From the IMG/VR virus record IMGVR_UViG_3300011339_000610: DNA of 64,000 nt. One strand, written 5' to 3'. Shown in pieces: positions 3,801 to 46,443 of this stretch. Positions within the stretch are counted from its first letter, which is position 1. Each line of letters begins with the position of its first letter. A program made the translations under genes and the position numbers. The notes below the pieces were generated by a model, which was not told the DNA's origin, ran no database searches, and was given only the letters and a program-made list of their open reading frames with translations. The stretch is from an uncultured virus (IMG/VR IMGVR_UViG_3300011339_000610). Taxonomy: Duplodnaviria; Heunggongvirae; Uroviricota; Caudoviricetes.

Positions 3801-6800
3801 CTTTTTCTCTTTTTTTCTCAGCGTCTTTTGCATATTGCTGTGCTCTCCTAAGTACTAAAGCATCTGCTTTATCTAATACAGCTTGCTCATAATCTGCCTT
3901 TAGTTTAGCTAGTTTTTCACGCTCCTTTTCTAATGCTTCATCTGTATCAGTAGGTTTTTGTTTTTCAGCTAGTTCTTCCTTACGTAAAACTTCTTCAAGT
4001 TCTGTTAATGTAAGTTTTTCTCCTTTGTGATTTACCTTGTAAGCATTATAAACATCTTTAATGTTCTTTTCGTTTAACTTGCCATCCGTTATTTCTATTA
4101 TCCTTTCAATAATAGTAGCTGCTTTGTAAATACCTTGCTCAAATTGTGCTAGCACTAATTCACCTACCGCCTCAATAGCTTCATTACTCAATCCGCTTGA
4201 ACCGAAGAAGTTTATTTTGCCTAGTTTCTTTAATGCTTCTGCTTGTCTTGTCTTACCTTGTTCGTAACGGGCTTTTAGCTTATCACTTAGTTTAACATTA
4301 ACCTTTGTGGTAGAGTTAGGTGCTGACACTACAGCTTGCTGTGCTGCTGCCTTCTTAATGTCTTTTACTTTACTTTGGAAAGTTTTTACTTCTTGTTCAT
4401 ACTTCTCGTAAATATTTGGCTTTGTCTTTTTGAAATCTTCTAAGCCTTCTCTTACTTGGCCATCAATAAATGATAAAAACGCATCAGGGTTTACAGATTT
4501 AGAGAATACTGCTACTGCTGAATTAAATTGACCAGCTTTATAATGTGCCTTAAATGCTTCTCTCCTTAAGTCTTCTGATTTTTGTAAAAAATTATTGTAT
4601 TTAGCTGAGTCTCCCGCTTTTTGAAAATCTAATGCTTTTGCAAACATTCTGTCAGCAAGCAATTCGATTGCTATTGCATTTCTTGCATCCAAGTATGGAT
4701 TGTTCAAGAAAATCTTTATCATGTCGTAAGCTGCATCTAATAGCCCTTGTTCAGTATCACCATATTGAGCTAAGTATTCTTCAGCTTGGTCTAGTGTGGC
4801 CTTTTGATTCATTGTTTCGTAGTATTCTCTTTGTGCGTTTACTACGTCATTGTATGCATCACTTACAGGCATGCGCCCTTCTGCGTATGTTTTTGAACGG
4901 CCCGTTTCTTTGATGGTTGTTCCTTTTTCGCCTTCTTGAGCTTTTTTCTTCTTAGATGTATATCCCTTCTTAGGAGCTTCGGCTTCTTTGTCCTTAGCCT
5001 CTTTTGCTTTTTCTATTTCATCCTTGGTTATTACATCTTCTTTACCTACTTCACGCACATACTTGTTTACTGCAAATACTGCTTCACGGTATGATGAGAA
5101 ACCGTTTTCTTTTGCAACATCTGTTAATTCATCTCTTGCAATTGCTTGGTTTATTTCGTAATCTTTTATTGCTGATGTATCAAAGTCTTGCTCAAATAAT
5201 TCACGAACTTGCTTGATGGCTTCACTTATTTCTATACCACTATTTACAAGTGCCTTTACTGTGCTTGCTAATATATCAATTACTTTGTTTTGACTTACCC
5301 CTGACACCTTTGTCCCTTCAGGCAAATTCTTATTACGTAAGAACTCTTTTGCCTTTGCGGCCAAGTCATCTATCTTAGCTTCTGCTATTGCCTTACGTTC
5401 TGTCTTTGTAGGTTTAGCAGCTTCTTTTGCAGATGGTTTTCTTATACCGCTAATCCCATCAAACACAAAACCAAATGATTCATATAGTTTTTTTAACCCT
5501 TGTTCTGTTGTTGTGTCGTCTTGTGGTGAAATATCCAAATACAAATCTGTATTGTTTTTATCGGCCCAATCGGTTAGTTTTTTTATCAGTTCTTTAGCTT
5601 TGCCTTTGCCTCTTGCCTTTTCTTTTGTTGAAATTAATTCTATTTTAACACCATTTGTTATCGTGTCGGAAGTATCATTAACCTCATCATAAATCTCAAC
5701 CTCATTAGGTTTTATAAATATAACAGATTGCTTATCATCACTAAGAAGCATATCACCCATATCTTCTCCAAATGGATTTGTTTTGTCACCCCATTTTAAA
5801 TCAGTATCTTTAAATCCTAAATCTTTTTTAACTTTAACAAAATCACTTTCTCCTTTTTCGTTTATAATGTCATTTTCAGTTTTTGGCAGTTCTGGCAATT
5901 TATTGATTTCGTCTTGTGATTTCTTGTCAATTTCTTCTTGAAGTTTTTTTATTGCCAATGTCTCATCGCCAATTTCGTTTAATAACTCTTGATACCTTTT
6001 AGTCCTTTCTTCTATTGTACCCTCTGATTTTTTCTTTATTTCCGATATTTTATTAAGCCTTTCTTCTATTAATTCTTGTTGACTTTTAGGTGCAGATTCT
6101 TTTACAGGCTTTACTTTCGCTGCTTCTGCGGCTTTCTGCTCTGCTATTAAAGGAGTAATTAGTTTATTATATCTTTCGTAAATTTCGGTTCTTGCAACTT
6201 CGTCATTAGGGTCAGACATAGCATCATACTCGGCTTTTTCTGCCGCTCTTAAATCTGCTATACGCTCCGCTACTGGTTTAGTAGTTGGTTTTGCTTCTGC
6301 TATAGATTCTTCTAATAGTTTTTCTACTACTTTTGTTAACTTTGTTTTTTTACCTTTAGATTTATCAGCATGATATGCATCAGAGATTACATCTGATATT
6401 TTCTTCCCTGTATCTTTACCATCAACTATTCCAAAAGATTTTTCTGGAGCTAAATCAGCAATTTCTTGCCAATTATCAGAACTTTCACCTATTTTATTTT
6501 TAATCATCTCCAAAGCCTTGGCAGTGCTCTCTACATCTTTTAATGCTTCCGATACTTTAGGTGCTGTTACAGTTTTTTCTGCTGTTGGTGTTACCTCTAT
6601 TGCAGGTGCTGTAACTTCCGTAACCTTTTCCGAGACTTGCGTACCTAGTAGGTTTTCAATTTCTTGAACTATACTGTTTTTTTCTGATTCGGTTTTTGCA
6701 TTTCTTGCTTTATTTTCAAGAGCTTCGATAGTTGCAGAATCCTCTTCAATTTGTTGGTCGCTTGACTTGTCGATGTATTGCTTTGCTTGTTCATTTGTTA

Positions 6801-28469: not shown

Positions 28470-28542
28470 TATCCGATGGTGTAATTGGCAACACGTCTGA
28501 TTTTGGTTCAGAAGAGTTTAGGTTCGAGACCTAATCGGATAA
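28470..28542 (+). tRNA. tRNA-Gln(UUG)
   Basis: Acceptor TATCCGA/TCGGATA, anticodon arm TCTGA-TTTTGGT-TCAGA, T loop TTCGAGA; CCA not encoded. Confidence 0.92.
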
Positions 28543-29593: not shown

Positions 29594-30205
29594 ATGAGTA
29601 GAATAGAATATAACCCATCCCTTAACGATAAAGTTGCGGGACAATTAGGAGACTTAGGCGTAGAAATACAAATACCTTTAAGCTCTATAAAAGACTTAAT
29701 TATGCCTTACAAGGTGTATACTGCGCTATTGTCACAGGCTGGTCTTAGTGAACCTTTAGTTTTGTTTGATGGAGAGTTAACTATAGGAGTAACTTACTTG
29801 ATAGATGACAACGGTGGCAGTGGATGGGATTTTACAAATGTAGGTGCTCCTAATAATGATTTATTTACTTATTTTGTAGCTACTGGAACTACCCCCAATA
29901 GCTGGGGCAGTGATGCTATGCTTAGTTACAATCTAGGTGCTCCAGTAGTAACAGTATTACAGAATACAATTGGAAATATTTGGTTTACGTATGAGAATGT
30001 AGGTAATTATAACATACAATCAAATACGTTGTTTACGGTTAATAAAACATATTGTTCTGCTACATTATCTAATCATAATAATGATGCTACTAATGCAATT
30101 CTTGGCCCTGTAAATAATTCTAGTCTTAGATTAATAACCCTTTTACCAACTGATGGCCCATTCAATTCTAGTGATACATCAATAGAAATAAGAGTATATA
30201 ACTAA
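29594..30205 (+). CDS. putative virion/decoration protein
   Basis: YKVYTALLSQ...SIEIRVYN beta-rich protein behind a TATATTTG promoter. Confidence 0.55.
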   Translation: MSRIEYNPSLNDKVAGQLGDLGVEIQIPLSSIKDLIMPYKVYTALLSQAGLSEPLVLFDGELTIGVTYLIDDNGGSGWDFTNVGAPNNDLFTYFVATGTTPNSWGSDAMLSYNLGAPVVTVLQNTIGNIWFTYENVGNYNIQSNTLFTVNKTYCSATLSNHNNDATNAILGPVNNSSLRLITLLPTDGPFNSSDTSIEIRVYN

Positions 30206-30223
30206 TCTAGCAAGATAACATAC

Positions 30224-30258
30224 AAGACCACTTAGGAAAACCCTAGGTGGTTTTTTTA
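30224..30258 (+). terminator. intrinsic terminator
   Basis: ACCACTTAGG-loop-CCTAGGTGGT followed by T-run. Confidence 0.85.
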
Positions 30259-30703
30259 TGCCTATACACCACCACAGCATACACTCCGCACACAGGGGGT
30301 ATTGTGCCTGTATATAGTATCAATGTCCGTGGAACATATTACCACACCTACTTTGTGTTTTACCGAGGCCATTTTTACTAACTGCCTCACAATCAACCGT
30401 GGAACATTTTACATTCTTACCATAAATACCAAATATACCCCGTATTACATATAAAACACCCCCTTTTAACCCCCTCCCAGGGGTCACTACCCAATTATTT
30501 TTTTACCAATATAGGATGGATTATCAGTATATAGGATGGATTCTTAGGGTAACCCCATAAGATTTCACCTGCTGCTTAACCAAAAAAAAGGTATACCGCA
30601 CCTTACCTCCCACCCACACCACACAGCTAAAAACAGCTTTATACACTTATAAACCGTTATATATCAAAAGTTTAAAAATAAAATTTGCCTATAAACTTTA
30701 CCA

Positions 30704-30719
30704 TGTTTCACGTGGAACG
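30704..30719. promoter_or_regulatory. parS-like palindrome TGTTTCACGTGGAACG
   Basis: Close match to the bacterial parS consensus; half-sites CCGTGGAACA at about 30327 and 30397. Confidence 0.7.
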
Positions 30720-30882
30720 GGGAGGGGAAATAACATCCTGCTATCTGTACTTAGTCTAAATAAAAATAGTTAACATTGGTTTGAAGATAGTACAGTTTCC
30801 TTATCCAGAAAGATTCTAAATAGTTATTTATATTGTTTCTTAATAGTGCTTTTTAACATGCACTTTGCAGCCTATATAAAAC

Positions 30883-31070
30883 CTGATTAATATCATATAA
30901 ATAATTCACATAAACTGATTTTTATCATTTTATACCTTATTGCATTGGTATACTTTTGTACTTAGTTATTTGATATAAGGCACTAAGGCAAAACATGATA
31001 ATTATCATAAAAAAAAATATTAAAAACTGATTTTTATCATTGTATTACTTTTTAAACTGCTTTATGTTTG
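30883..31070 (+). promoter_or_regulatory. tandem early promoters, each with two TGAT-N4-ATCA boxes
   Basis: Boxes at 30883, 30915, 30995, 31027; TAnnTTTG at 30951 and 31063; exact 112-bp offset. Confidence 0.75.
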
Positions 31071-31110
31071 TACTCGTTAATTAGAAACACACATACATAT
31101 ATATACACAC

Positions 31111-31470
31111 ATGAAAAACAACAAAACAGCTACAGCGCAAAGCGCAACAGCTAACAAAGCAACATTAAGCACAGCAACAGCACAAACAGCTAACAAGGCT
31201 AAAACTACTAAAGTAAAACAGCCAAGCGCATACGATACGCAAGTATTAAAACGTTGGGCTAACTTAAAAGAAGAAAAAGGCAAAATAGGTTATTGTTTAT
31301 CTTTCATCAAAGCGCAAGCGGACGTTTTACAGCTAACTAATAAAGAAACTAAGCTTATAACTGAATGGCGCAAAGATGCAAGTACACTAACAGCTAATTT
31401 AAAGGCAAACAAGGCGGGCAAATATAGTGCATGGCAAATATTCCAATACATGTATAAAATTAGCAAGTAA
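31111..31470 (+). CDS. first early gene, basic hypothetical protein
   Basis: Ala/Thr/Lys-rich N-terminus with ATAQ/TANKA repeats. Confidence 0.75.
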   Translation: MKNNKTATAQSATANKATLSTATAQTANKAKTTKVKQPSAYDTQVLKRWANLKEEKGKIGYCLSFIKAQADVLQLTNKETKLITEWRKDASTLTANLKANKAGKYSAWQIFQYMYKISK

Positions 31471-31476
31471 TTTAAT

Positions 31477-32075
31477 AGGCTATTATACCGCTTTGTAAAT
31501 AGAAGCGGGCAAATATCGAATATTTTAATAGCCTCAAAGTATACCAACGTTTTAACAAATTTAGTGCGCTTCGCACACGTTGGGCAAATATACGAAAGTG
31601 TAATAAATGTACACTTGTTTAGCATAGCTTCTATGCAATTATAACAAGTTATAATTTTTTACAGTGTACCTTTCTCATGTTTATAAATTATTAGTAGTGC
31701 AGTATATGCGCATGAACATATTTTTATAACAATACCAATACAATATGTATAAAAAATGCATACTTTCATACGTATGTGCTGTATTTTTGGCAAATTTACA
31801 GGTATTTAGCTGCACTTCGGTTTGTGTAGCTACCTTATAAAATCATGGGCAAATGTCAAGAGTAAGGAAATAACAATGCTAGCGTAATTATGCGCTCAAA
31901 AAATCAAAACAATTATTATCTAATCAACTATACACGCTACAATGTGAGCGTGTGTATATATGTTATAACTTGCTTAAGTGACCCAATCTAGTGCGCAAGT
32001 TGAAATACAAAGGGTAATGAGTGCGCAATGTCGTAAAATGCGTATTATAGGTTAACCGACAATACCTACACTCGC
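31477..32075 (+). ncRNA. candidate large structured ncRNA (~600 nt)
   Basis: No plus-strand ORF; more than ten stems, G-U pairs on plus, recurring GGCAAA, possible 3' pseudoknots. Confidence 0.6.
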
Positions 32076-32096
32076 TAAACAACTAATAATAAAACC

Positions 32097-32213
32097 ATGA
32101 GAAAACTATCTATTGCCTTAGCAATGCTAGGCTTATTAATTTTAAGTTCGTGTGCAAGTAACAGACCATGTTACAAACAACAAAATTTTTTCTTCAGTAA
32201 AACAGTAATTTAA
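32097..32213 (+). CDS. tiny lipoprotein (38 aa)
   Basis: MRKLSIALAMLGLLILSSCAS lipobox. Confidence 0.65.
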   Translation: MRKLSIALAMLGLLILSSCASNRPCYKQQNFFFSKTVI

Positions 32214-32218
32214 ACAGT

Positions 32219-32302
32219 ATGAAATTGACTAAAAAAGAATTGGCTATATCGCTATTCATTGTGTGGGCTTTGGCATACTTCGCTGAACATATCGTAAAAT
32301 AA
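32219..32302 (+). CDS. tiny membrane peptide (27 aa)
   Basis: MKLTKKELAISLFIVWALAYFAEHIVK. Confidence 0.55.
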   Translation: MKLTKKELAISLFIVWALAYFAEHIVK

Positions 32303-32316
32303 TTAATTATAAAACT

Positions 32317-32556
32317 ATGGACTACATTAAAAACTTAAAAGAAATGATTGAAAGCTGTTTCACATATGGTGGTGCAGGTGTAGACAGTTACAATTACAAA
32401 ACGTACATTTTAAAGTACAAAGATAACCTGGGTGAAGACGTGTTCACCCAAGTATATAATGAACACTTGCAATACCTTACAGACAATGCGACTGTGCAAA
32501 CAAATGTGTACACTGACTGCGAAGGGCTATCTTATAACAATTTAATAATAAAATAA
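32317..32556 (+). CDS. early hypothetical protein
   Basis: YTDCEGLSYN motif; A-rich leader. Confidence 0.7.
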   Translation: MDYIKNLKEMIESCFTYGGAGVDSYNYKTYILKYKDNLGEDVFTQVYNEHLQYLTDNATVQTNVYTDCEGLSYNNLIIK

Positions 32557-32567
32557 ACAATACAATT

Positions 32568-32948
32568 ATGGGATGGACTACAATGCACAGGTATGAGCCT
32601 GTAAAAGAACTATTCACAAAGCAAATTGAATGGGGTAATCGTTACAAGGTTATTGATTGTAAAATTGTACATATGACTGAGTTATATGCGGCAATACTTG
32701 ACACACAAACTAACCAAGTAAGAGGTGAAGTATGGTTGCTTCGCTATTACAAGAGCGGCAGCTATTATAAAAACATGTTTGGTAATGTACAATATAATTT
32801 CGGGTACAAAGCTATGAATGAATCATGCGGGCCTTATTATTTTAAGTGTCCCAAAAGTGTGCTAGACAAACTTACACCAACTGAGGATAACAATGCAAAT
32901 GAATGGCGCAAACAATGCTTAGAACTAATTAACAACCGTAAAAAATAA
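32568..32948 (+). CDS. DUF6927-like early protein
   Basis: MGW...GYK.M.E..GP....CP...L..L.......A..WR..C. Confidence 0.7.
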   Translation: MGWTTMHRYEPVKELFTKQIEWGNRYKVIDCKIVHMTELYAAILDTQTNQVRGEVWLLRYYKSGSYYKNMFGNVQYNFGYKAMNESCGPYYFKCPKSVLDKLTPTEDNNANEWRKQCLELINNRKK

Positions 32949-32959
32949 ACAATACAACT

Positions 32960-33394
32960 ATGAAAGATAACTGGATTAGATTAGGTATAGAGATTGACAA
33001 CTCTACCCTAGGTTTCACTCAGACTATAAATGTGTCTGATATGATTAACACAGAGTATACACGCTTGCTTGATGAGTCTATACTCGATAATTATAAGAAA
33101 GCACTCAAAGCTTGTGGTGGTAAATTCGATATGATAACCATTAGTATAAGCCGCTCAGTTAGTTATAGCTACACGTATCAATGCCTGAAACAATACAGGT
33201 TCTTAGGTAAAAAGTCTAATGACTATAACCCTGATGGTATAGAAGGCTCTCGATACTTCGATAATATGTTTGGCGACTTTCAACCATGCGACAAAAAAGA
33301 AATTATAAAAACCATTAAAGAGTATATCAATACAGCTAACCGTATATATATAGAAGCTATTAAAGAAAACAATCAACAACTTGTAAATAATTAA
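32960..33394 (+). CDS. early hypothetical protein
   Basis: ORF in early operon. Confidence 0.7.
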   Translation: MKDNWIRLGIEIDNSTLGFTQTINVSDMINTEYTRLLDESILDNYKKALKACGGKFDMITISISRSVSYSYTYQCLKQYRFLGKKSNDYNPDGIEGSRYFDNMFGDFQPCDKKEIIKTIKEYINTANRIYIEAIKENNQQLVNN

Positions 33395-41874: not shown

Positions 41875-44800
41875 TTACCTAGGCATACGTGGTCTGTAAT
41901 ACATCTTAGCTACTGCATCTAGTATAGTAATGTCGTTAGCTGAGACTATTTTAAAGGTCATGTATTCACCCGTTATTTGGTCTCCATTAAGAGCAGGCTC
42001 AACAGCTGTGAATATGTTACCATTCTTTTGCTCGAAGTCTACTGATGTACTCTCCTGAGTTTTGGTAGCAAAATCTACAGTTGGGAAAGTTGTTTGGTCT
42101 TCCCCAGTGTTCAATCCTATGCTTAGGAATCTCTTGGTTGTATTTTGTACTTTGTTTACAACAGGTTGTACGTAGAAGTCAATACCTAGTCCATCAAAGT
42201 AAGTGTCTGTACCATTGTTTAGCTCGTATACTTTACCCCATGCACTCTTTACATTAGGTACTAGCAATTCATTGTTGTATTGGAAGTATCTGTTTGGCAA
42301 AGCACCGCTTAGTGTCGTAAATGTATTTAGCTTCTCATTAAATAGTATACTAAATATTGAATAGTAATCACCGTCTGATAATGGTATTTGTTCCCAATAA
42401 TCAGGATTTGTTAATGGATATTTATTAGCAGACATGCTTTGTGTAGCTCTGAAGAATAAAGGGTATCCATAAAAACTAACACCCACTAATGATACTACCA
42501 TACCTTCGGTATAATCACTTTCAAAACTCCACTCTGGTACTAAATTGTTATAAGCATTAGCTGATATCCATAAGTTATCCCTCTTAGTATCAAAGCCCAT
42601 TATTAAATCAAACTCATTTGCTAAGAACTTTGTGCGTGTTAAAAAGAAGTTACGCATAAAGGCATTGTCTGACAAGCACTGTATGCCATCTCTACCATAC
42701 CTAAATACTTTCTTGGTTACCTCGCTGAACCAATACAAACTTGCATTACCGTTCTTGTTAAATCCTCGGAATGAATTAGTCTGTATGTTTGTTCCATAAG
42801 TACCAACAATACTTTCTCTTTGTGCGTACACTCCACCATTCCCAATGTATATCTCTGCACCCGCATCTGACTTTAACAATACGTCAGTTTGATATGGCAA
42901 CACAGATACCGCAAACTTCTGAATAGCTATCATTGTATCGTTAATATCGTACAATGCACTTATCTGCCCGTTCTTGCCGTCTAAATCTTTAAAGTCTAGT
43001 GGTGCAATATCCCTGAAACTATCATAGCTACTACCTGTTGGTCGTTGTGCTGTGTAGTATATTCTTGTCGGGAACTTAGTTTGTATCTTTAACTTATCAT
43101 TGTAAGGCTTACTGCGTGTTAGTTTATTTGTTTGTTGGCTGTAACCTTCATCAATTAAATAAAACTCTTCATTGTCATCATCCAAGTATTGTGATATACT
43201 TTCTGCATCAGCAGGGAATAATACGCAACCTGCCTCAGAAGTCCTACGCATCTGTGTATTGTACCTATTCTGAGTATAGAAAGAAATAAAACTTTCGTAC
43301 TTAGTAGCGGTTTCTATGTTAACAGTGCCTGGAGCAGCGGATGAATATAGTAATCTTAAATAGTTTTTTTGCACGTAAGTGTCTCCACCAAATACATCAA
43401 TATTATAAATCAATCCACCATCGGAATCAGTTAAATTATAATAAGAATTAGTATCAACTACGTTAATGTTTTCTACATCTAAGGTGTTACTCGCTCTATA
43501 ATAATACCCTAAATAAACTCCATAGTCTTGTCCTACCCTTGCAGCTACAGTTGCCTGTGGGTCAAAGAAAGACACCCCTAAAGCAGCCGTATCCATAGAT
43601 GGCCTAAAAGTATCAACTTTATTTAATACTAATTTAGTGGGATTTGAAAGACCTGATAATGTATTGTAAATATATCTATCACTTGTTTCCCTAAATGGAG
43701 TAAATACAGCATCTTCAAGTATAGCGGGTGAGTTATTTGCTGCTTGGGTTGCTCTAGGGCAATAGCCCGTAAATTCCACGAAACTACCCAGCCTTAGACC
43801 TATTGATGATGCAACATTATTATTAGCTGATGCTGGGAATATTGTTGGCTGTCCCGCCATATACATTTTATCGCCTGTTTGAAATCTAACTAACTCACCA
43901 TCTCTTACAATATTGTCAGGTGCTATAAATCCTGAGTATCTTCTTACGGGGTTAAACGATGTTGGGAATGCAGAGCCGTATAAAGCACCTGTTGGATTAG
44001 ACGCATAAAATCCTGCATAATATCCCTCAGCTGCAATTTGATTTGCCATTAAGTTAATACCACAAGCAATTACTTTGGGGTTAGTTATATCTCCTCTCCA
44101 AAAACTAAATCCTACTAATTCGTTTCTTATGCTAGTAACATCTATGTCAGTAAATATAGGATGATAAACATATGGATTACCAACACCATCTGTTAATTCT
44201 ACGTCTATACCATAACCAACAACATAAGTATTAAAGTCGCTTGGTTTAATGGTATGTGTGCCTATATAATATGGAGCAGTAGTATAACCGCTCTTCTTGT
44301 GAAATTTAATATAATAAGGGTACTCTTCGTAAAGCATGTACCCCATGTTATTAGCTACGTTTTCTGCCTTTTGATATTCGTTTTCTGCTAATTGCTTACC
44401 AAAGTTAAAGCTATCAACTACTCCCACAACTGATGAAAAGCCACTAGACTGAATGTCCCATTGTGTTTCTCCTTGAACAAACCAATCAGCACGAACCTTT
44501 TCTCCTGCCGCAAGAGTCACTAATAACTCTAGATTTTCTCCAGCAGCAATTCTTTCTGTTGTGCTTCCATTTATAGTGGTTGTTGGAAGAAACCTTCCAC
44601 TCCACAATACTGCCTTTAAAGTATTGTCAGGGTTTAAATGATATACACTTACACTTGCAAAATCTAGTGAATTACCTACGCCAAAAATATTTCTAGATGC
44701 ATTACCAGAAATGGTAAAGTTCAATTTAATATTATTTACCCCTGCTGTTGATACATCTGCTGCGTAAACTCCAGTAGTGGTATTGAAAGCACTATAAGGA

Positions 44801-46443
44801 TTGCTATTAATGGTATATGGTACGGCTGTAAAAAAAGTAGAACTCGCAGTCAGGGGGTCACTTCCTCCTGTTTTTGGTGTTACCTTGTAATTTGAAACTT
44901 GAAACGCTTGTAAATTTGAATTACCAGAAAAAAGTTCTCCTACTCTTGATATAACTTTCCTGCCGCTTTTAATTGTTATTTTACTAGCTATTTCTGAGTA
45001 AGCATCAACGTCTCCGTCTATCTGTACGTTAGCTATATTGTATCTGTTCTTTTTAATTTCATTTGTTTTGCCTGTTAATATTACAGGCTTAACATTTACA
45101 ATTGCAGCAGGGTCAAATGGTGTTGAGCCTAACTCATTACCACTGTGTATTATTTCTGTAGTCTCTGCTATAATATCATATCTATCTACAAGTGTTGCAC
45201 TTGTGCCGCCTCCCTCATACTCTACACAAACTAATTCTAAAAAGTTAAACACATCTGCCATGCAGTTGGTTACCTTCAATACTATTTGCTTGGTGGTTGT
45301 CTCAGGAGTTATATCTCCTTTTATCTTAACCGCATTCCTTGGGGCTTGATTGTCTGCTTTATAAACAATGGTGTACTCGCCTATGTCATTGAATGGTGTT
45401 GTGTTTTCTATACCATTTACGCCAAACCTTACGTAATATCTTTTACCACCACTTTTTAACGAGCCGCCTGTAGCTATTTGTCTATCAACGACTACAAGTG
45501 CTTTGTTGTTAAATATCTGTAAGTTAGTCTGTACATCTACGTTATTAAGATTGTACGTGCCTAGCTTGTTTAAGTAAACGCCATCATTGCTGCCAACGCT
45601 TCCCCAATAGTATCTAAATACGGATAATGTTAAGTCATTATTACAATAAAATACTTTTGGTTTGTTAGTGTTGTCTACCCAATACACGCCTATTGTATCA
45701 TTACCTAATACCTCGGCACGCATATCAATCACTTCATCAGTAGGTAAGTTTAATTTTGAGCTACCTAATAATTTTGTGTATGTCCACGCACCATTGATAT
45801 CTCTTACAGCACATCCTATCTCACAATAGAATTGGTCAATAGCCTTGCTTAATACAAACTGCTTATCTCCAACCAATGCACTTGACAATGGCTGCATCTC
45901 TGCGGTGTATCCTATCGGCTCTTGCAAAAGTATAGTTGGCTGTAAAACCCAGTCTAGTGTGCCTGATGGTCTTGTTTCAACCGTAATATTATAACTCGCA
46001 TAGTTATTGATGTCTAATCTAAACGCACCGTTTGCAAATGCACCCGCTTCATACGGAGCACTCGTGAATGGTGTTACACTTGAAATCGTAGGCACTGATT
46101 CAAAGGCTGCTTTTAAATCAATACCAAAAGTATAAAGCCCAAGCGGTGTTACTGGTACATTTAAAATTGCAAACTGATAATATACGAGACCTGATACCGT
46201 TACTTGGTAGTCAGTTGTTGCTGTTGTTATAAATGGGAATCTATACCAGCTATATTGCGGGGTGATATTAGGAATAGTATAACCTAACTTTGTACCTTTC
46301 ATCCTACGAATACCACCTAACGTATTTGTGTCATCAACAAAATGCTCTATGTCGTTGCCATCAATATATCTTTCTGACTTAACTGAACGTAAATCATTGT
46401 CACTATCTAGTCCTCTAAATACAAAGTTTTGATTATCCTGCAT
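41875..46443 (-). CDS. crAss-type muzzle / tail stabilisation protein
   Basis: 1522 aa; GLDSD N-terminus, FGGDTY, G.I..L and FNEKLN.F motifs; follows ring proteins. Confidence 0.75.
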   Translation of the reverse strand: MQDNQNFVFRGLDSDNDLRSVKSERYIDGNDIEHFVDDTNTLGGIRRMKGTKLGYTIPNITPQYSWYRFPFITTATTDYQVTVSGLVYYQFAILNVPVTPLGLYTFGIDLKAAFESVPTISSVTPFTSAPYEAGAFANGAFRLDINNYASYNITVETRPSGTLDWVLQPTILLQEPIGYTAEMQPLSSALVGDKQFVLSKAIDQFYCEIGCAVRDINGAWTYTKLLGSSKLNLPTDEVIDMRAEVLGNDTIGVYWVDNTNKPKVFYCNNDLTLSVFRYYWGSVGSNDGVYLNKLGTYNLNNVDVQTNLQIFNNKALVVVDRQIATGGSLKSGGKRYYVRFGVNGIENTTPFNDIGEYTIVYKADNQAPRNAVKIKGDITPETTTKQIVLKVTNCMADVFNFLELVCVEYEGGGTSATLVDRYDIIAETTEIIHSGNELGSTPFDPAAIVNVKPVILTGKTNEIKKNRYNIANVQIDGDVDAYSEIASKITIKSGRKVISRVGELFSGNSNLQAFQVSNYKVTPKTGGSDPLTASSTFFTAVPYTINSNPYSAFNTTTGVYAADVSTAGVNNIKLNFTISGNASRNIFGVGNSLDFASVSVYHLNPDNTLKAVLWSGRFLPTTTINGSTTERIAAGENLELLVTLAAGEKVRADWFVQGETQWDIQSSGFSSVVGVVDSFNFGKQLAENEYQKAENVANNMGYMLYEEYPYYIKFHKKSGYTTAPYYIGTHTIKPSDFNTYVVGYGIDVELTDGVGNPYVYHPIFTDIDVTSIRNELVGFSFWRGDITNPKVIACGINLMANQIAAEGYYAGFYASNPTGALYGSAFPTSFNPVRRYSGFIAPDNIVRDGELVRFQTGDKMYMAGQPTIFPASANNNVASSIGLRLGSFVEFTGYCPRATQAANNSPAILEDAVFTPFRETSDRYIYNTLSGLSNPTKLVLNKVDTFRPSMDTAALGVSFFDPQATVAARVGQDYGVYLGYYYRASNTLDVENINVVDTNSYYNLTDSDGGLIYNIDVFGGDTYVQKNYLRLLYSSAAPGTVNIETATKYESFISFYTQNRYNTQMRRTSEAGCVLFPADAESISQYLDDDNEEFYLIDEGYSQQTNKLTRSKPYNDKLKIQTKFPTRIYYTAQRPTGSSYDSFRDIAPLDFKDLDGKNGQISALYDINDTMIAIQKFAVSVLPYQTDVLLKSDAGAEIYIGNGGVYAQRESIVGTYGTNIQTNSFRGFNKNGNASLYWFSEVTKKVFRYGRDGIQCLSDNAFMRNFFLTRTKFLANEFDLIMGFDTKRDNLWISANAYNNLVPEWSFESDYTEGMVVSLVGVSFYGYPLFFRATQSMSANKYPLTNPDYWEQIPLSDGDYYSIFSILFNEKLNTFTTLSGALPNRYFQYNNELLVPNVKSAWGKVYELNNGTDTYFDGLGIDFYVQPVVNKVQNTTKRFLSIGLNTGEDQTTFPTVDFATKTQESTSVDFEQKNGNIFTAVEPALNGDQITGEYMTFKIVSANDITILDAVAKMYYRPRMPR

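What the first reader, a model, noticed from the sequence alone, without database searches (positions are those of the whole stretch)
31477..32075. Candidate ~600-nt highly structured ncRNA in the first-transcribed region
Seen: no plus-strand ORF in an otherwise packed operon. Stems include AGGCTATTA/TAATAGCCT, CCGCTT/AAGCGG, CCAACGT/ACGTTGG, GTGCG/CGCAC, GTACACT/AGTGTAC, GCATAG/CTATGC, AATTATAAC/GTTATAATT, long-range CTCATG-TTTATAA (31674) with TTATAAA-ATCATGGG (31835), AGCTGCAC/GTGTAGCT, AGCGTA/TGCGCT, TACACGCT/AGCGTGTG, AACTTGC/GCAAGTT and GAGTG/CACTC. G-U pairs favour the plus strand. GGCAAA recurs four times, at least three at helix 3' ends. The 3' domain has possible pseudoknots ACCC/GGGT and TGTCG/CGACA. 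Inference: a large phage RNA in the size class of ROOL or GOLLD, possibly new, made immediately on infection and perhaps partnered by the basic protein 31111..31470.
Basis: partly seen in the sequence, partly recalled or inferred. Interest (0 to 1): 0.85.

Follow-up and report, generated by a model that had tools for sequence, protein, structure and literature searches.

The report
Modular folded RNA, freshwater crAss-like phage
The gene-free 626 bases are a real, evolutionarily maintained folded RNA region of an uncultured crAss-like phage, made of a small three-armed junction, swappable middle hairpins and a knotted 200-base end piece; it matches no catalogued RNA and its job is still unknown.

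Summary
Window 31471-32096 has no ORF conserved on either strand. It lies in a crAss-like phage (muzzle protein, 3136-aa giant protein).

Relatives came from six metagenome contigs, found through the conserved 119-aa gene just upstream. They show two plus-strand RNA domains kept by compensatory change:
- M1 (31477-31534) is a 58-nt three-way junction. All 132 cells pair and 14 of 22 pairs have double changes; 0 of 500 shuffles reach this.
- D3 (31876-32074) has six helices, an H-type pseudoknot (ACCC/GGGT) and a kissing-loop contact (TGTCG/CGACA). All 177 cells pair and 5 pairs have double changes; 2 of 500 shuffles reach this.

The middle modules are swapped or deleted between relatives. Rfam gives nothing.

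Limits: only 4-6 distinct sequences, no RNA data, unremarkable local folding energies, and D3 conserved no better than other shared blocks. Expression timing and the protein partner are untested.

The closest parallel is the pair of unexplained abundant early intergenic RNAs of Cellulophaga phage phi14:2. No homology to them was found. Earlier notes of this scan report similar RNA islands in other crAss-like phages.

The parts
30224..30262 (+). Intrinsic terminator ending the upstream operon: a 13-bp hairpin followed by U7
   Evidence: MFE -17.9 kcal/mol, z -4.61, 0 of 200 shuffles as good. The block is 86% identical in L093.
30878..31085 (+). Two 112-nt direct repeats with TGAT..ATCA palindromes and TAnnTTTG boxes (30951-30958, 31063-31070). 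Probable regulated promoter region of the transcription unit that carries the RNA.
   Evidence: D1, 73% identity; box positions. In one search the box 35-40 nt before the ATG is kept in 4 of 6 sequences. The Bacteroidota -7 consensus is recalled from memory, not tested.
31111..31470 (+). Conserved 119-aa protein gene: disordered basic N-terminus, helical C-terminal domain, unknown fold
   Evidence: 25 homologues at 39-100% identity; alignment; pLDDT above 90 for residues 61-119; no fold match (best Z 4.5).
31471..32096 (+). The whole non-coding structured-RNA region
31477..31534 (+). M1: 58-nt three-way junction. Outer stem of 9 bp; hairpin A of 7 bp with loop G[UCA]AAAUA; hairpin B of 6 bp with loop CGN.
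   Evidence: 7 sequences (6 distinct), gapless. 132 of 132 cells paired, 14 of 22 pairs with changes on both sides, 0 of 500 shuffles reach this. 28 of the 31 variable columns lie in stems. z -3.38.
31544..31582 (+). M2: hairpin CCAACGT/ACGTTGG with inner GTGCG/CGCAC, followed by GCAAAUAU. L091-L093 carry a different stem with a conserved loop.
   Evidence: (columns 112-159, some double changes and some broken pairs)
31600..31669 (+). M3: hairpin module present only in the window and L089. Absent in L092, L093 and L099, and replaced in a contig of run X14.
   Evidence: gap at columns 199-242; joint 31525->31670 with 95 other letters in between; z -2.31.
31670..31733 (+). Conserved sequence block at the 5' side of the middle domain
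   Evidence: 94% identity to L093 and L099, 91% to L092
31671..31860 (+). M4: variable middle domain (190 nt here, about 260 nt in relatives), including the conserved helix ..CYGUA / UUACRG.. and the loop UUUGGCAAA
   Evidence: in L089, L092 and L093, 57 predicted pairs, 13 with double changes, several broken.
31876..32074 (+). D3: conserved 3' domain.
- P1: 31881-86 / 31891-96
- Conserved A-rich single strand: 31897-31928
- P2: 31929-38 / 31947-56
- P3: 31967-73 / 31995-32001
- P4: 32018-23 / 32069-74
- P5: 32024-27 / 32039-42
- P6: 32048-52 / 32064-68
   Evidence: 47 pairs, 177 of 177 cells paired, 5 pairs with double changes (P1 1, PK1 1, P4 1, P6 2). 2 of 500 shuffles reach this; slid controls give 0. 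The CM R1 finds it in all 5 sequences that reach it and nowhere else.
31981..32015 (+). PK1: the P3 loop ACCC (31981-84) pairs with GGGU (32012-15), forming an H-type pseudoknot
   Evidence: A-U changes to G-C, and C-G changes to U-G, in the relatives
32029..32061 (+). PK2: kissing contact between the P5 loop UGUCG (32029-33) and the P6 loop CGACA (32057-61)
   Evidence: complementary in all 4 distinct sequences but invariant, so compatible and untested
32097..32213 (+). 38-aa ORF with a lipoprotein-like signal, the first ORF after D3 in the window only
   Evidence: absent in L089, and replaced by a different ORF in L093 and L099. In all three lineages the start codon lies 19-22 nt after P4.
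32219..32302 (+). Conserved 27-aa hydrophobic ORF (MKLTKKELAISLFIVWALAYFAEHIVK)
   Evidence: 93-94% nucleotide identity to L093 and L099.

Best explanation
The region encodes a genuine plus-strand structured RNA that is specific to a small clade of freshwater crAss-like phages.

Shown here:
- It is non-coding.
- Two domains are held in shape by compensatory evolution. M1 is a three-way junction right after the stop codon of the 119-aa gene. D3 is a 200-nt domain with a pseudoknot and a kissing-loop contact, ending about 20 nt before the next start codon.
- The hairpin modules between them are exchanged, lost or replaced between relatives.
- In M1 the loops and junctions are fixed while the stems drift. 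This is the signature of an RNA whose loops are read by something.

Inferred:
- The RNA is made rightward, together with the 119-aa gene, from the promoter-like repeats at 30.9-31.1 kb. An intrinsic terminator closes the preceding operon, and no terminator separates the RNA from the genes after it.
- By analogy with phage phi14:2, the intergenic part most likely accumulates as a stable non-coding RNA, possibly cut out of the message.
- The rigid D3 scaffold, its conserved 32-nt A-rich single strand and the M1 loops would then bind a protein or a ribosomal component, either from the host or the co-inherited 119-aa protein, rather than regulate one particular gene.

I put the reality of the fold at about 0.9. 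The confidence given below is for the 'stable, trans-acting RNA' reading.
For: - Covariation: M1 and D3, with slid-partner controls far lower in both.
- Independent single-sequence folds of each homologue give the same M1 architecture from different stem sequences.
- G-U pairs exist only on the plus strand. The whole-region z is -5.72 on the plus strand against -0.55 on the minus strand.
- No ORF is conserved in frame.
- D3 is followed by three different first ORFs in three lineages. This argues against control of one specific gene.
- The conserved unpaired stretch 31897-31928 varies at only 3 of 32 positions.
- Precedent: in the crAss-like phage phi14:2 two long intergenic regions in the rightward early module are transcribed above most genes from the earliest time point and do not decline. 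Their function is unknown (passages of bioRxiv 10.1101/2020.03.07.982082).
- The layout here is the same: two long gaps flanking a small ORF.
- Terminator before the unit; conserved promoter-like box.
Against: - There is no transcript evidence of any kind for this phage.
- Only 4 (D3) to 6 (M1) distinct sequences are available. The D3 double changes fall on just two splits of the tree: window against the rest, and L089/L092 against window/L093.
- D3 is 88-90% identical between relatives, no more than other shared blocks of these mosaic genomes, which run at 74-95% and include coding ones. Conservation by itself therefore proves nothing.
- The nested-fold energy of D3 is ordinary: z -1.54, with 16 of 200 shuffles as good. 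Local z-scores are unremarkable.
- No promoter or terminator delimits a separate RNA. D3 ends at a constant 19-22 nt before a start codon, which fits a cis-acting leader just as well.
- No sequence or structure homology to the phi14:2 region was found, so the analogy is positional only.
Confidence: 0.42

Rival explanations
1. The region is a set of cis-acting untranslated elements of one polycistronic early message, not a free RNA. M1 would be a 3' structure that stabilises or marks a processing site for the 119-aa gene's mRNA. D3 would be a 5' leader that protects the downstream message after cleavage, or sets up or regulates translation at the A-rich start region 19-22 nt behind it. The middle hairpins would be spacers.
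For: - M1 starts 7-40 nt after the stop codon in all 7 sequences.
- D3 ends 19-22 nt before a start codon in all three lineages, although the ORF differs.
- No terminator lies between D3 and the following genes (and my reading).
- The middle part is dispensable or replaceable.
Against: - The first downstream gene differs in each lineage, so no constant regulated target exists.
- 600 nt is very long for untranslated spacing in a tightly packed phage operon.
- In the only crAss-like phage with transcript data, the analogous intergenic RNAs behave differently from the neighbouring early genes: they are more abundant and do not decline.
Confidence: 0.33
2. One of the conserved domains is a catalytic or otherwise known type of RNA that sequence models miss. 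Examples: a self-cleaving ribozyme that cuts the early message into pieces, an antitermination RNA of the HK022 put type, or a degenerate relative of the tmRNA that phi14:2 carries at the equivalent place.
For: - D3 has a compact pseudoknotted, kissing-loop architecture with many invariant unpaired positions, as small ribozymes and RNA polymerase- or ribosome-binding RNAs do.
- phi14:2 has a tmRNA gene inside its long intergenic gap.
- Earlier notes of this scan report ribozymes in such islands of other crAss-like phages (unchecked).
Against: - No Rfam match even at E<=10 in the window's region, or at E<=1 in five homologous loci.
- ARAGORN finds no tmRNA in the window.
- The P4/P5/P6 junction has no unpaired strands at two of its three corners, unlike hammerhead or purine-riboswitch cores. 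That comparison is from my recall of those families.
Confidence: 0.12
3. The conserved hairpins act in DNA, not RNA: a replication origin, an operator cluster, or hairpin promoters for the virion RNA polymerase in the manner of phage N4.
For: - Just upstream lies a region with iteron-like repeats, palindromes and a flip of GC skew.
- The crAss-like virion polymerase transcribes single-stranded DNA in vitro, and its early promoters have no known motif.
Against: - The fold needs G-U pairs that are A-C mismatches on the minus strand, including invariant ones. The minus strand is the template for rightward transcription.
- Pseudoknot and kissing-loop pairings covary or are kept, which is unexpected for duplex DNA elements.
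- M1 and D3 each occur once per genome, not as a promoter series.
Confidence: 0.06
4. Nothing functional: an AT-rich mosaic spacer whose stems are chance hairpins carried along by recent common descent.
For: - Ordinary local z-scores.
- D3 is no better conserved than other shared blocks.
- Few sequences are available.
Against: - The M1 outer stem has four entirely different sequences that all pair perfectly: 9 of 9 pairs with double changes.
- All 14 variable paired columns of D3 keep pairing.
Confidence: 0.04

Closest known systems
Early long intergenic non-coding RNAs of the crAss-like Cellulophaga phage phi14:2 (g004-g005 and g005-g006 junctions; Drobysheva et al., bioRxiv 10.1101/2020.03.07.982082; passages read)
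   Same: - The host virus is crAss-like.
- Two long gene-free gaps flank a small ORF inside the rightward (replication/early) gene block.
- The gaps lie on the same strand as the genes.
- Function is unknown.
   Different: - No sequence or covariance-model similarity was found.
- The flanking proteins are unrelated.
- Expression is shown there and unknown here.
- One phi14:2 gap holds a tmRNA gene, which this window lacks.
Large phage- and prophage-associated structured RNAs ROOL and GOLLD (Rfam families; the properties given here are recalled)
   Same: - Size class of several hundred nucleotides.
- Multi-domain fold with pseudoknots.
- Phage association, with a tRNA gene nearby (tRNA-Gln at 28470).
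- No known function at discovery.
   Different: - No match to any Rfam model at the gathering score or at E<=10.
- Only the two end domains are conserved here, and the middle is swappable.
- The distribution is a single narrow phage clade.
Structured intercistronic elements of phage early messages, such as the RNase III processing hairpins of T7 and the put antitermination RNAs of HK022 (recalled)
   Same: - Folded RNA sits between early genes on a polycistronic transcript.
- It begins directly after a stop codon and ends directly before a start region.
   Different: - These are much longer and multi-domain.
- M1 is a three-way junction, not a long irregular duplex.
- No processing or antitermination test was possible.

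Membership tests
Any Rfam 15 family (including ROOL, GOLLD, tmRNA, ribozymes, riboswitches) | Covariance-model score at or above the family's gathering threshold | tested here: not met
   the only hit in the 64-kb window is a tRNA; at E<=10 only four chance-level hits appear in 30400-32400 (mir-297 x3, DdR6; E 6.4-9.6), none of them in M1 or D3; nothing in the RNA region of L089-L093 at E<=1.
tmRNA (as in phi14:2 at the analogous locus) | tRNA-like acceptor and T-arm, plus a tag reading frame, as detected by ARAGORN or Rfam RF00023 | tested here: not met
   ARAGORN finds only tRNA-Gln in the window; no RF00023 hit. As a positive control, the phi14:2 locus gives a tmRNA at 4031-4500 and RF00023 at 46 bits, E 4.5e-16.
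phi14:2-type early intergenic lncRNAs of crAss-like phages | Long gene-free gap, on the sense strand, inside the rightward replication/early module of a crAss-like phage | tested here: met
   The gaps at 30206-31110 and 31471-32096 flank a 119-aa ORF in the plus-strand block that holds primase-helicase, GP88 and DUF932 genes.
phi14:2-type early intergenic lncRNAs of crAss-like phages | Abundant transcript from the earliest time point that does not decline | not testable with these tools
   One search lists no RNA holder. The phage is uncultured.
phi14:2-type early intergenic lncRNAs of crAss-like phages | Sequence or structure homology to the phi14:2 RNAs | tested here: not met
   blastn gives only short, weak matches to L085, none of them between the window's RNA region and the phi14:2 intergenic gap. 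The CMs R1 and R2 give no hit in the phi14:2 gap.
Protein-sponge RNAs (CsrB/RsmZ type) | Many copies of one short motif displayed in loops, with the copy number conserved among homologues | tested here: not met
   GGCAAA occurs 4 times in the window (0 of 1000 shuffles) but only 2, 1 and 2 times in L089, L092 and L093. In M1 the AAAUAU following GC is the 5' arm of hairpin B.
Gene-specific cis-regulatory leader (riboswitch or attenuator) | Constant association with one downstream gene family and an expression platform (terminator or start-site sequestering helix) | tested here: not met
   The first ORF after D3 differs in the window, L089 and L093/L099. No terminator follows D3. The start region is A-rich and unpaired in the folds. 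The constant 19-22 nt spacing to a start codon keeps a general leader role open.
N4-type hairpin promoters for a virion RNA polymerase | Short hairpin extruded on the template strand, repeated upstream of several early transcripts (recalled definition) | tested here: inconclusive
   The plus-strand-only G-U pairs and the single copy per genome speak against it. No transcript 5' ends are available.

The most novel reading that the evidence does not exclude
crAss-like phages keep an 'RNA slot' at the head of a replication-module operon and fill it with different translation- or host-directed RNAs. In phi14:2 the slot holds a tmRNA plus an unknown RNA. Here it holds a new ~600-nt modular RNA whose near-invariant pseudoknot and kissing-loop domain (D3) and three-way junction (M1) form a previously unknown class of phage RNA. 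That RNA might work as an RNP with the orphan 119-aa protein, or be catalytic. It would act in trans on the host's ribosome, RNA decay or defence machinery.
Probability: 0.15. Interest if true: 0.8.

Novelty: new variant of a known kind. Interest (0 to 1): 0.58.

Why it matters
crAss-like phages are among the most abundant viruses known, and their early gene expression is poorly understood. The one studied member makes large amounts of unexplained early intergenic RNA.

This window gives a concrete, covariation-supported fold for such an RNA in an uncultured freshwater relative. The fold consists of a 58-nt three-way junction and a 200-nt pseudoknotted domain. Relatives treat the intervening hairpins as exchangeable modules.

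The finding offers defined, small targets (M1 and D3) for structure probing, cleavage assays and pull-downs. It adds a new family for RNA databases. If the RNA proves to be trans-acting, it would point to a so-far unknown way in which these phages handle the host.

Tried and rejected
1. Relatives in IMG/VR.
- Searches with the proteins 31111-31470, 32568-32948, 32960-33394 and 29594-30205, with GP88, and with alignment A1 gave no locus with homologous RNA.
- The GP88 relatives L005-L009 are not syntenic.
- Two DNA-pattern scans of viral contigs found 0 matches.
- G001 is a 100% identical copy over this stretch and so is uninformative.

2. Genome contigs. The 24-mer pattern found 0 matches. The gapped pattern found 44 loci. 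None of the 44 gives a significant match to CM R1: the best is 12.4 bits, E 2.2, over 59 of 209 model positions. I treat them as chance hits.

3. GenBank phages. blastn in 'distant' mode found nothing for 31100-32320. For D3 it gave only 7 chance-level fragments, each covering at most 19% of the query at E>=0.2.

4. Expression. No RNA holder was listed among 20 runs, so there is no evidence either way. The laid contigs show relatives covering the region. X13 has a 4834-nt contig over 31022-32089 with 55 differences. X14 covers 31820-32307 with 17 differences. The table of differing letters was cut off before the RNA region, so these variants could not be used for covariation.

5. GGCAAAT as a minus-strand Bacteroidota -7 box (TAnnTTTG). 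Only 4 minus-strand boxes fall in or at the region, and the motif is common genome-wide (134 sites). In M1 the motif is part of a covarying hairpin. Rejected.

6. GGCAAA as a sponge motif. The copy number is not conserved.

7. The 33-aa ORF at 31890-31991 as a small protein. Rejected because of the frame shift in L093 and L099.

8. Function of the 119-aa protein. Searches gave nothing usable: no family at E<=0.001 in Pfam or PHROGs, Foldseek against PDB (best E 1.9), VIA-align wide (best Z 4.5), ESM Atlas.

9. Earlier notes of this scan for this genome or sequence: none.

10. Distant homologues of the 119-aa protein (L094-L098, 28-31% identity) carry neither M1 nor D3. Their records are not held for whole-record search.
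Full report
**Context**

The window comes from a crAss-like phage. ORF 41875-46443 (minus strand) matches the Crassvirus muzzle protein (PF25731, E 2e-31). There is also a 3136-aa giant ORF, portal-like and terminase-like genes, and a primase-helicase. The plus-strand gene block running from about 19.3 to 37.8 kb holds replication-type genes.

The finding lies inside this block. It is not at its start.

**What precedes the region**

The 203-aa gene ends at 30205. A textbook intrinsic terminator follows at 30224-30256 with a U7 tail (z -4.61). After it come about 850 nt without ORFs. This stretch is C-rich, carries iteron-like repeats, and shows a flip of GC skew.

Two 112-nt direct repeats follow. 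Each has a TGAT..ATCA palindrome and a TAnnTTTG box (30951, 31063). The box nearest the 119-aa gene is kept in 4 of 6 relatives. The Bacteroidota -7 consensus is my recollection, so 'promoter' is an inference.

The 119-aa ORF (31111-31470) is a real gene. It has 25 homologues at 39-100% identity and a strongly conserved C-terminal helical domain. It has no recognisable family or fold.

**Checking the observation**

The region 31471-32096 has only two short plus-strand ORFs. It matches no Rfam family at the gathering score or at E<=10.

As one piece it folds better than shuffles on the plus strand. The plus-strand z is -5.72, from only 20 shuffles, against -0.55 on the minus strand.

Energy alone is weak evidence:
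- 150-nt windows inside the region average about z -1.25 on the plus strand.
- Similar or stronger values occur elsewhere in 27-36 kb.
- D3 alone gives z -1.54.

**Finding relatives**

IMG/VR contains only a 100% identical copy, G001. Protein-anchored and pattern searches there failed.

The profile of the 119-aa protein retrieved 11 metagenome loci out of 192 pattern matches. Six of them are homologous at the DNA level over the region: L089, L090, L091, L092, L093 and L099. L093 and L099 are identical across the aligned RNA region. L090 and L091 end shortly after M1. The five distant loci (L094-L098) lack the RNA.

**M1 (31477-31534)**

In all 7 sequences that reach it, a 58-nt element starts 7-40 nt after the stop codon. 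It aligns without a single gap.

Its parts are:
- a 9-bp outer stem;
- hairpin A: 7 bp, loop G[UCA]AAAUA;
- the junction dinucleotides UA and G[CU];
- hairpin B: AAAWAU / AUWUUU, loop CGN.

The outer stem exists in four unrelated sequence versions, and all pair perfectly.

Counts:
- 132 of 132 cells are paired.
- 14 of 22 pairs have changes on both sides.
- 0 of 500 shuffles reach any of the five measures.
- Slid controls give at most 5 such pairs and at most 50% paired cells.

28 of the 31 variable columns lie in stems, and only 3 of the 14 unpaired columns vary. Each homologue folded on its own gives the same architecture.

I chose the segment boundaries by the outer stems. The invariant inner columns fix the register, so the alignment had no freedom.

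**D3 (31876-32074)**

This domain is alignable in all 5 sequences that reach it (4 distinct) at 93% mean column identity. I derived the following fold:

| Element | Coordinates | Note |
|---|---|---|
| P1 | 31881-86 / 31891-96 | |
| Single strand | 31897-31928 | conserved, A-rich, 32 nt |
| P2 | 31929-38 / 31947-56 | |
| P3 | 31967-73 / 31995-32001 | |
| PK1 | 31981-84 / 32012-15 | ACCC in the P3 loop pairs with GGGU downstream |
| P4 | 32018-23 / 32069-74 | closes a three-way junction with P5 and P6 |
| P5 | 32024-27 / 32039-42 | |
| P6 | 32048-52 / 32064-68 | |
| PK2 | 32029-33 / 32057-61 | P5 loop UGUCG complementary to P6 loop CGACA |

Counts:
- 47 pairs in total, and 177 of 177 cells paired.
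- 5 pairs have double changes: P1 1, PK1 1, P4 1, P6 2.
- 4 pairs have one-sided G-U changes.
- 2 of 500 shuffles reach this.
- Slid controls give no double changes and at most 54% paired cells.

All 14 variable paired columns keep pairing. The other 19 variable columns are unpaired. P2, P3, P5 and the kissing loops never vary, so they are compatible but untested. RNAalifold recovers P1, P2, P3 and P5 independently.

Its TGTCG/CGACA pairing is best read as a loop-loop contact.

**The middle (31535-31875)**

This part is modular.
- M2 is shared with L089 but has another stem and a conserved loop in L091-L093.
- M3 is present only in the window and L089.
- M4 is 190 nt here and about 260 nt elsewhere, with whole hairpins gained or lost.
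- A contig of run X14 replaces 31525-31670 with 95 other letters.
- Several middle helices covary. On the three-sequence alignment of L089, L092 and L093, 13 of 57 predicted pairs have double changes and some are broken.
- A 64-nt block (31670-31733) and the loop UUUGGCAAA are conserved.

**Coding or DNA-level alternatives**

The same nucleotides fall in different frames in L093 and L099, because of a 1-nt deletion. No ORF on either strand is shared.

The fold contains G-U pairs, 11 of 177 cells in D3 and 7 of 132 in M1. Some are invariant. All would be A-C mismatches on the minus strand. This places the structure on the plus strand, the sense strand of the operon. It argues against template-strand hairpin promoters and against duplex-DNA elements.

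**Results against a strong reading**

- These phage genomes are mosaics. Other blocks shared by the window and L093 are 74-95% identical, including coding ones, while the 119-aa gene is a divergent allele at about 34% amino-acid identity.
- D3's 88-90% identity is therefore not evidence of unusual constraint. Only the pattern of its substitutions is.
- The D3 double changes sit on two tree splits only.
- The GGCAAA repeat occurs 4 times in the window (0 of 1000 shuffles) but 1-2 times in the relatives. Two more copies are codons of the 119-aa gene.
- No RNA data exist.

**Likely function**

The unit appears to be transcribed rightward, with the 119-aa gene, from the repeat region. No terminator lies between D3 and the following small ORFs.

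D3 ends 19-22 nt before a start codon in all three lineages, yet the ORF differs in each:
- a 38-aa lipoprotein-like ORF in the window;
- the conserved 27-aa ORF directly in L089;
- another ORF in L093 and L099.

This fits two readings. One is a general leader or processing function. The other is an independent RNA that merely sits at an operon junction.

The only experimental precedent is phi14:2. There, two long intergenic regions between g004 and g006 are transcribed rightward above most genes from the first time point and do not decline, with function 'to be determined' (passages read). The layout is the same as here: two long gaps flanking a small ORF.

I therefore favour a stable non-coding RNA that presents fixed loops and a conserved single strand to a protein or the ribosome (0.42). 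Next comes a purely cis-acting set of untranslated elements (0.33). Smaller weights go to a missed catalytic or known-type RNA (0.12), a DNA element (0.06) and no function (0.04).

**Comparison and novelty**

The RNA is not a member of any Rfam family. It shows no homology to the phi14:2 locus. It is not a tmRNA.

It belongs to the known but unexplained kind 'early intergenic structured RNAs of crAss-like phages'. Earlier unchecked notes of this scan describe further such islands, some of them modular, on other DNA.

Searches of the paper library found only the phi14:2 preprint bearing on this. Its supplements were not seen.

I rate it a new variant of a known kind: a new RNA family with a well-supported partial fold, a narrow distribution and an unknown function.

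Noticed in passing
L085 (phi14:2, NC_021806) 4031-4500, plus strand: ARAGORN predicts a 470-nt tmRNA (tag GSSVQKLAMVA*). Rfam RF00023 scores 46 bits (gathering score 47), E 4.5e-16. It lies inside the long gap between g004 and g006, where the preprint reports abundant 'long non-coding RNAs' of unknown function. No tmRNA feature is listed in the record for this stretch. One of those RNAs is therefore probably a phage tmRNA. Assigning it to the g005-g006 junction is my inference.
   Followed up: partly
window 30260-30740: This is a C-rich, ORF-free stretch behind the terminator. It has paired short repeats, CCGTGGAACAT[AT]TTAC at 30327 and 30397 and ATATAGGATGGATT at 30509 and 30529. GC skew flips from about +0.2 to -0.27 over 30000-31200. 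Part of it (30304-30484) is 86% identical in L093. It could be an origin or regulatory region, or a further RNA.
   Followed up: partly
window 30878-31085: Two 112-nt direct repeats (73% identical). Each has a TGATnnnnATCA-type palindrome and a TAnnTTTG box. This looks like a pair of operator-controlled promoters in front of the 119-aa gene.
   Followed up: partly
window 32219-32302: A 27-aa hydrophobic ORF (MKLTKKELAISLFIVWALAYFAEHIVK) is identical in protein sequence in L093 and L099. It is 93-94% identical in DNA to them, although the ORFs around it differ. It may be a conserved small membrane peptide.
   Followed up: no
window 32097-32213: A 38-aa ORF with a lipoprotein-like signal (…LLILSSC…) is present only in this phage. 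L089 lacks the segment, and L093 and L099 carry an unrelated ORF there.
   Followed up: no
L009 767-2123: Another phage contig shares only the GP88 gene (66% identity). It also has a 1.35-kb ORF-free stretch at the head of its plus-strand operon, with many local hairpins and no similarity to this RNA.
   Followed up: no
window 31721-31727 with 31957-31963; window 31463-31469 with 31967-31973: RNAalifold proposes two long-range helices kept in all 5 sequences. One is UAUARCA / UGUUAUA. The other pairs the last codons of the 119-aa gene, AGYAAGU, with ACUUGCU; ACUUGCU is also the 5' arm of P3. They might tie the domains together or offer an alternative to P3. There are no double changes, so they are untested.
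   Followed up: no
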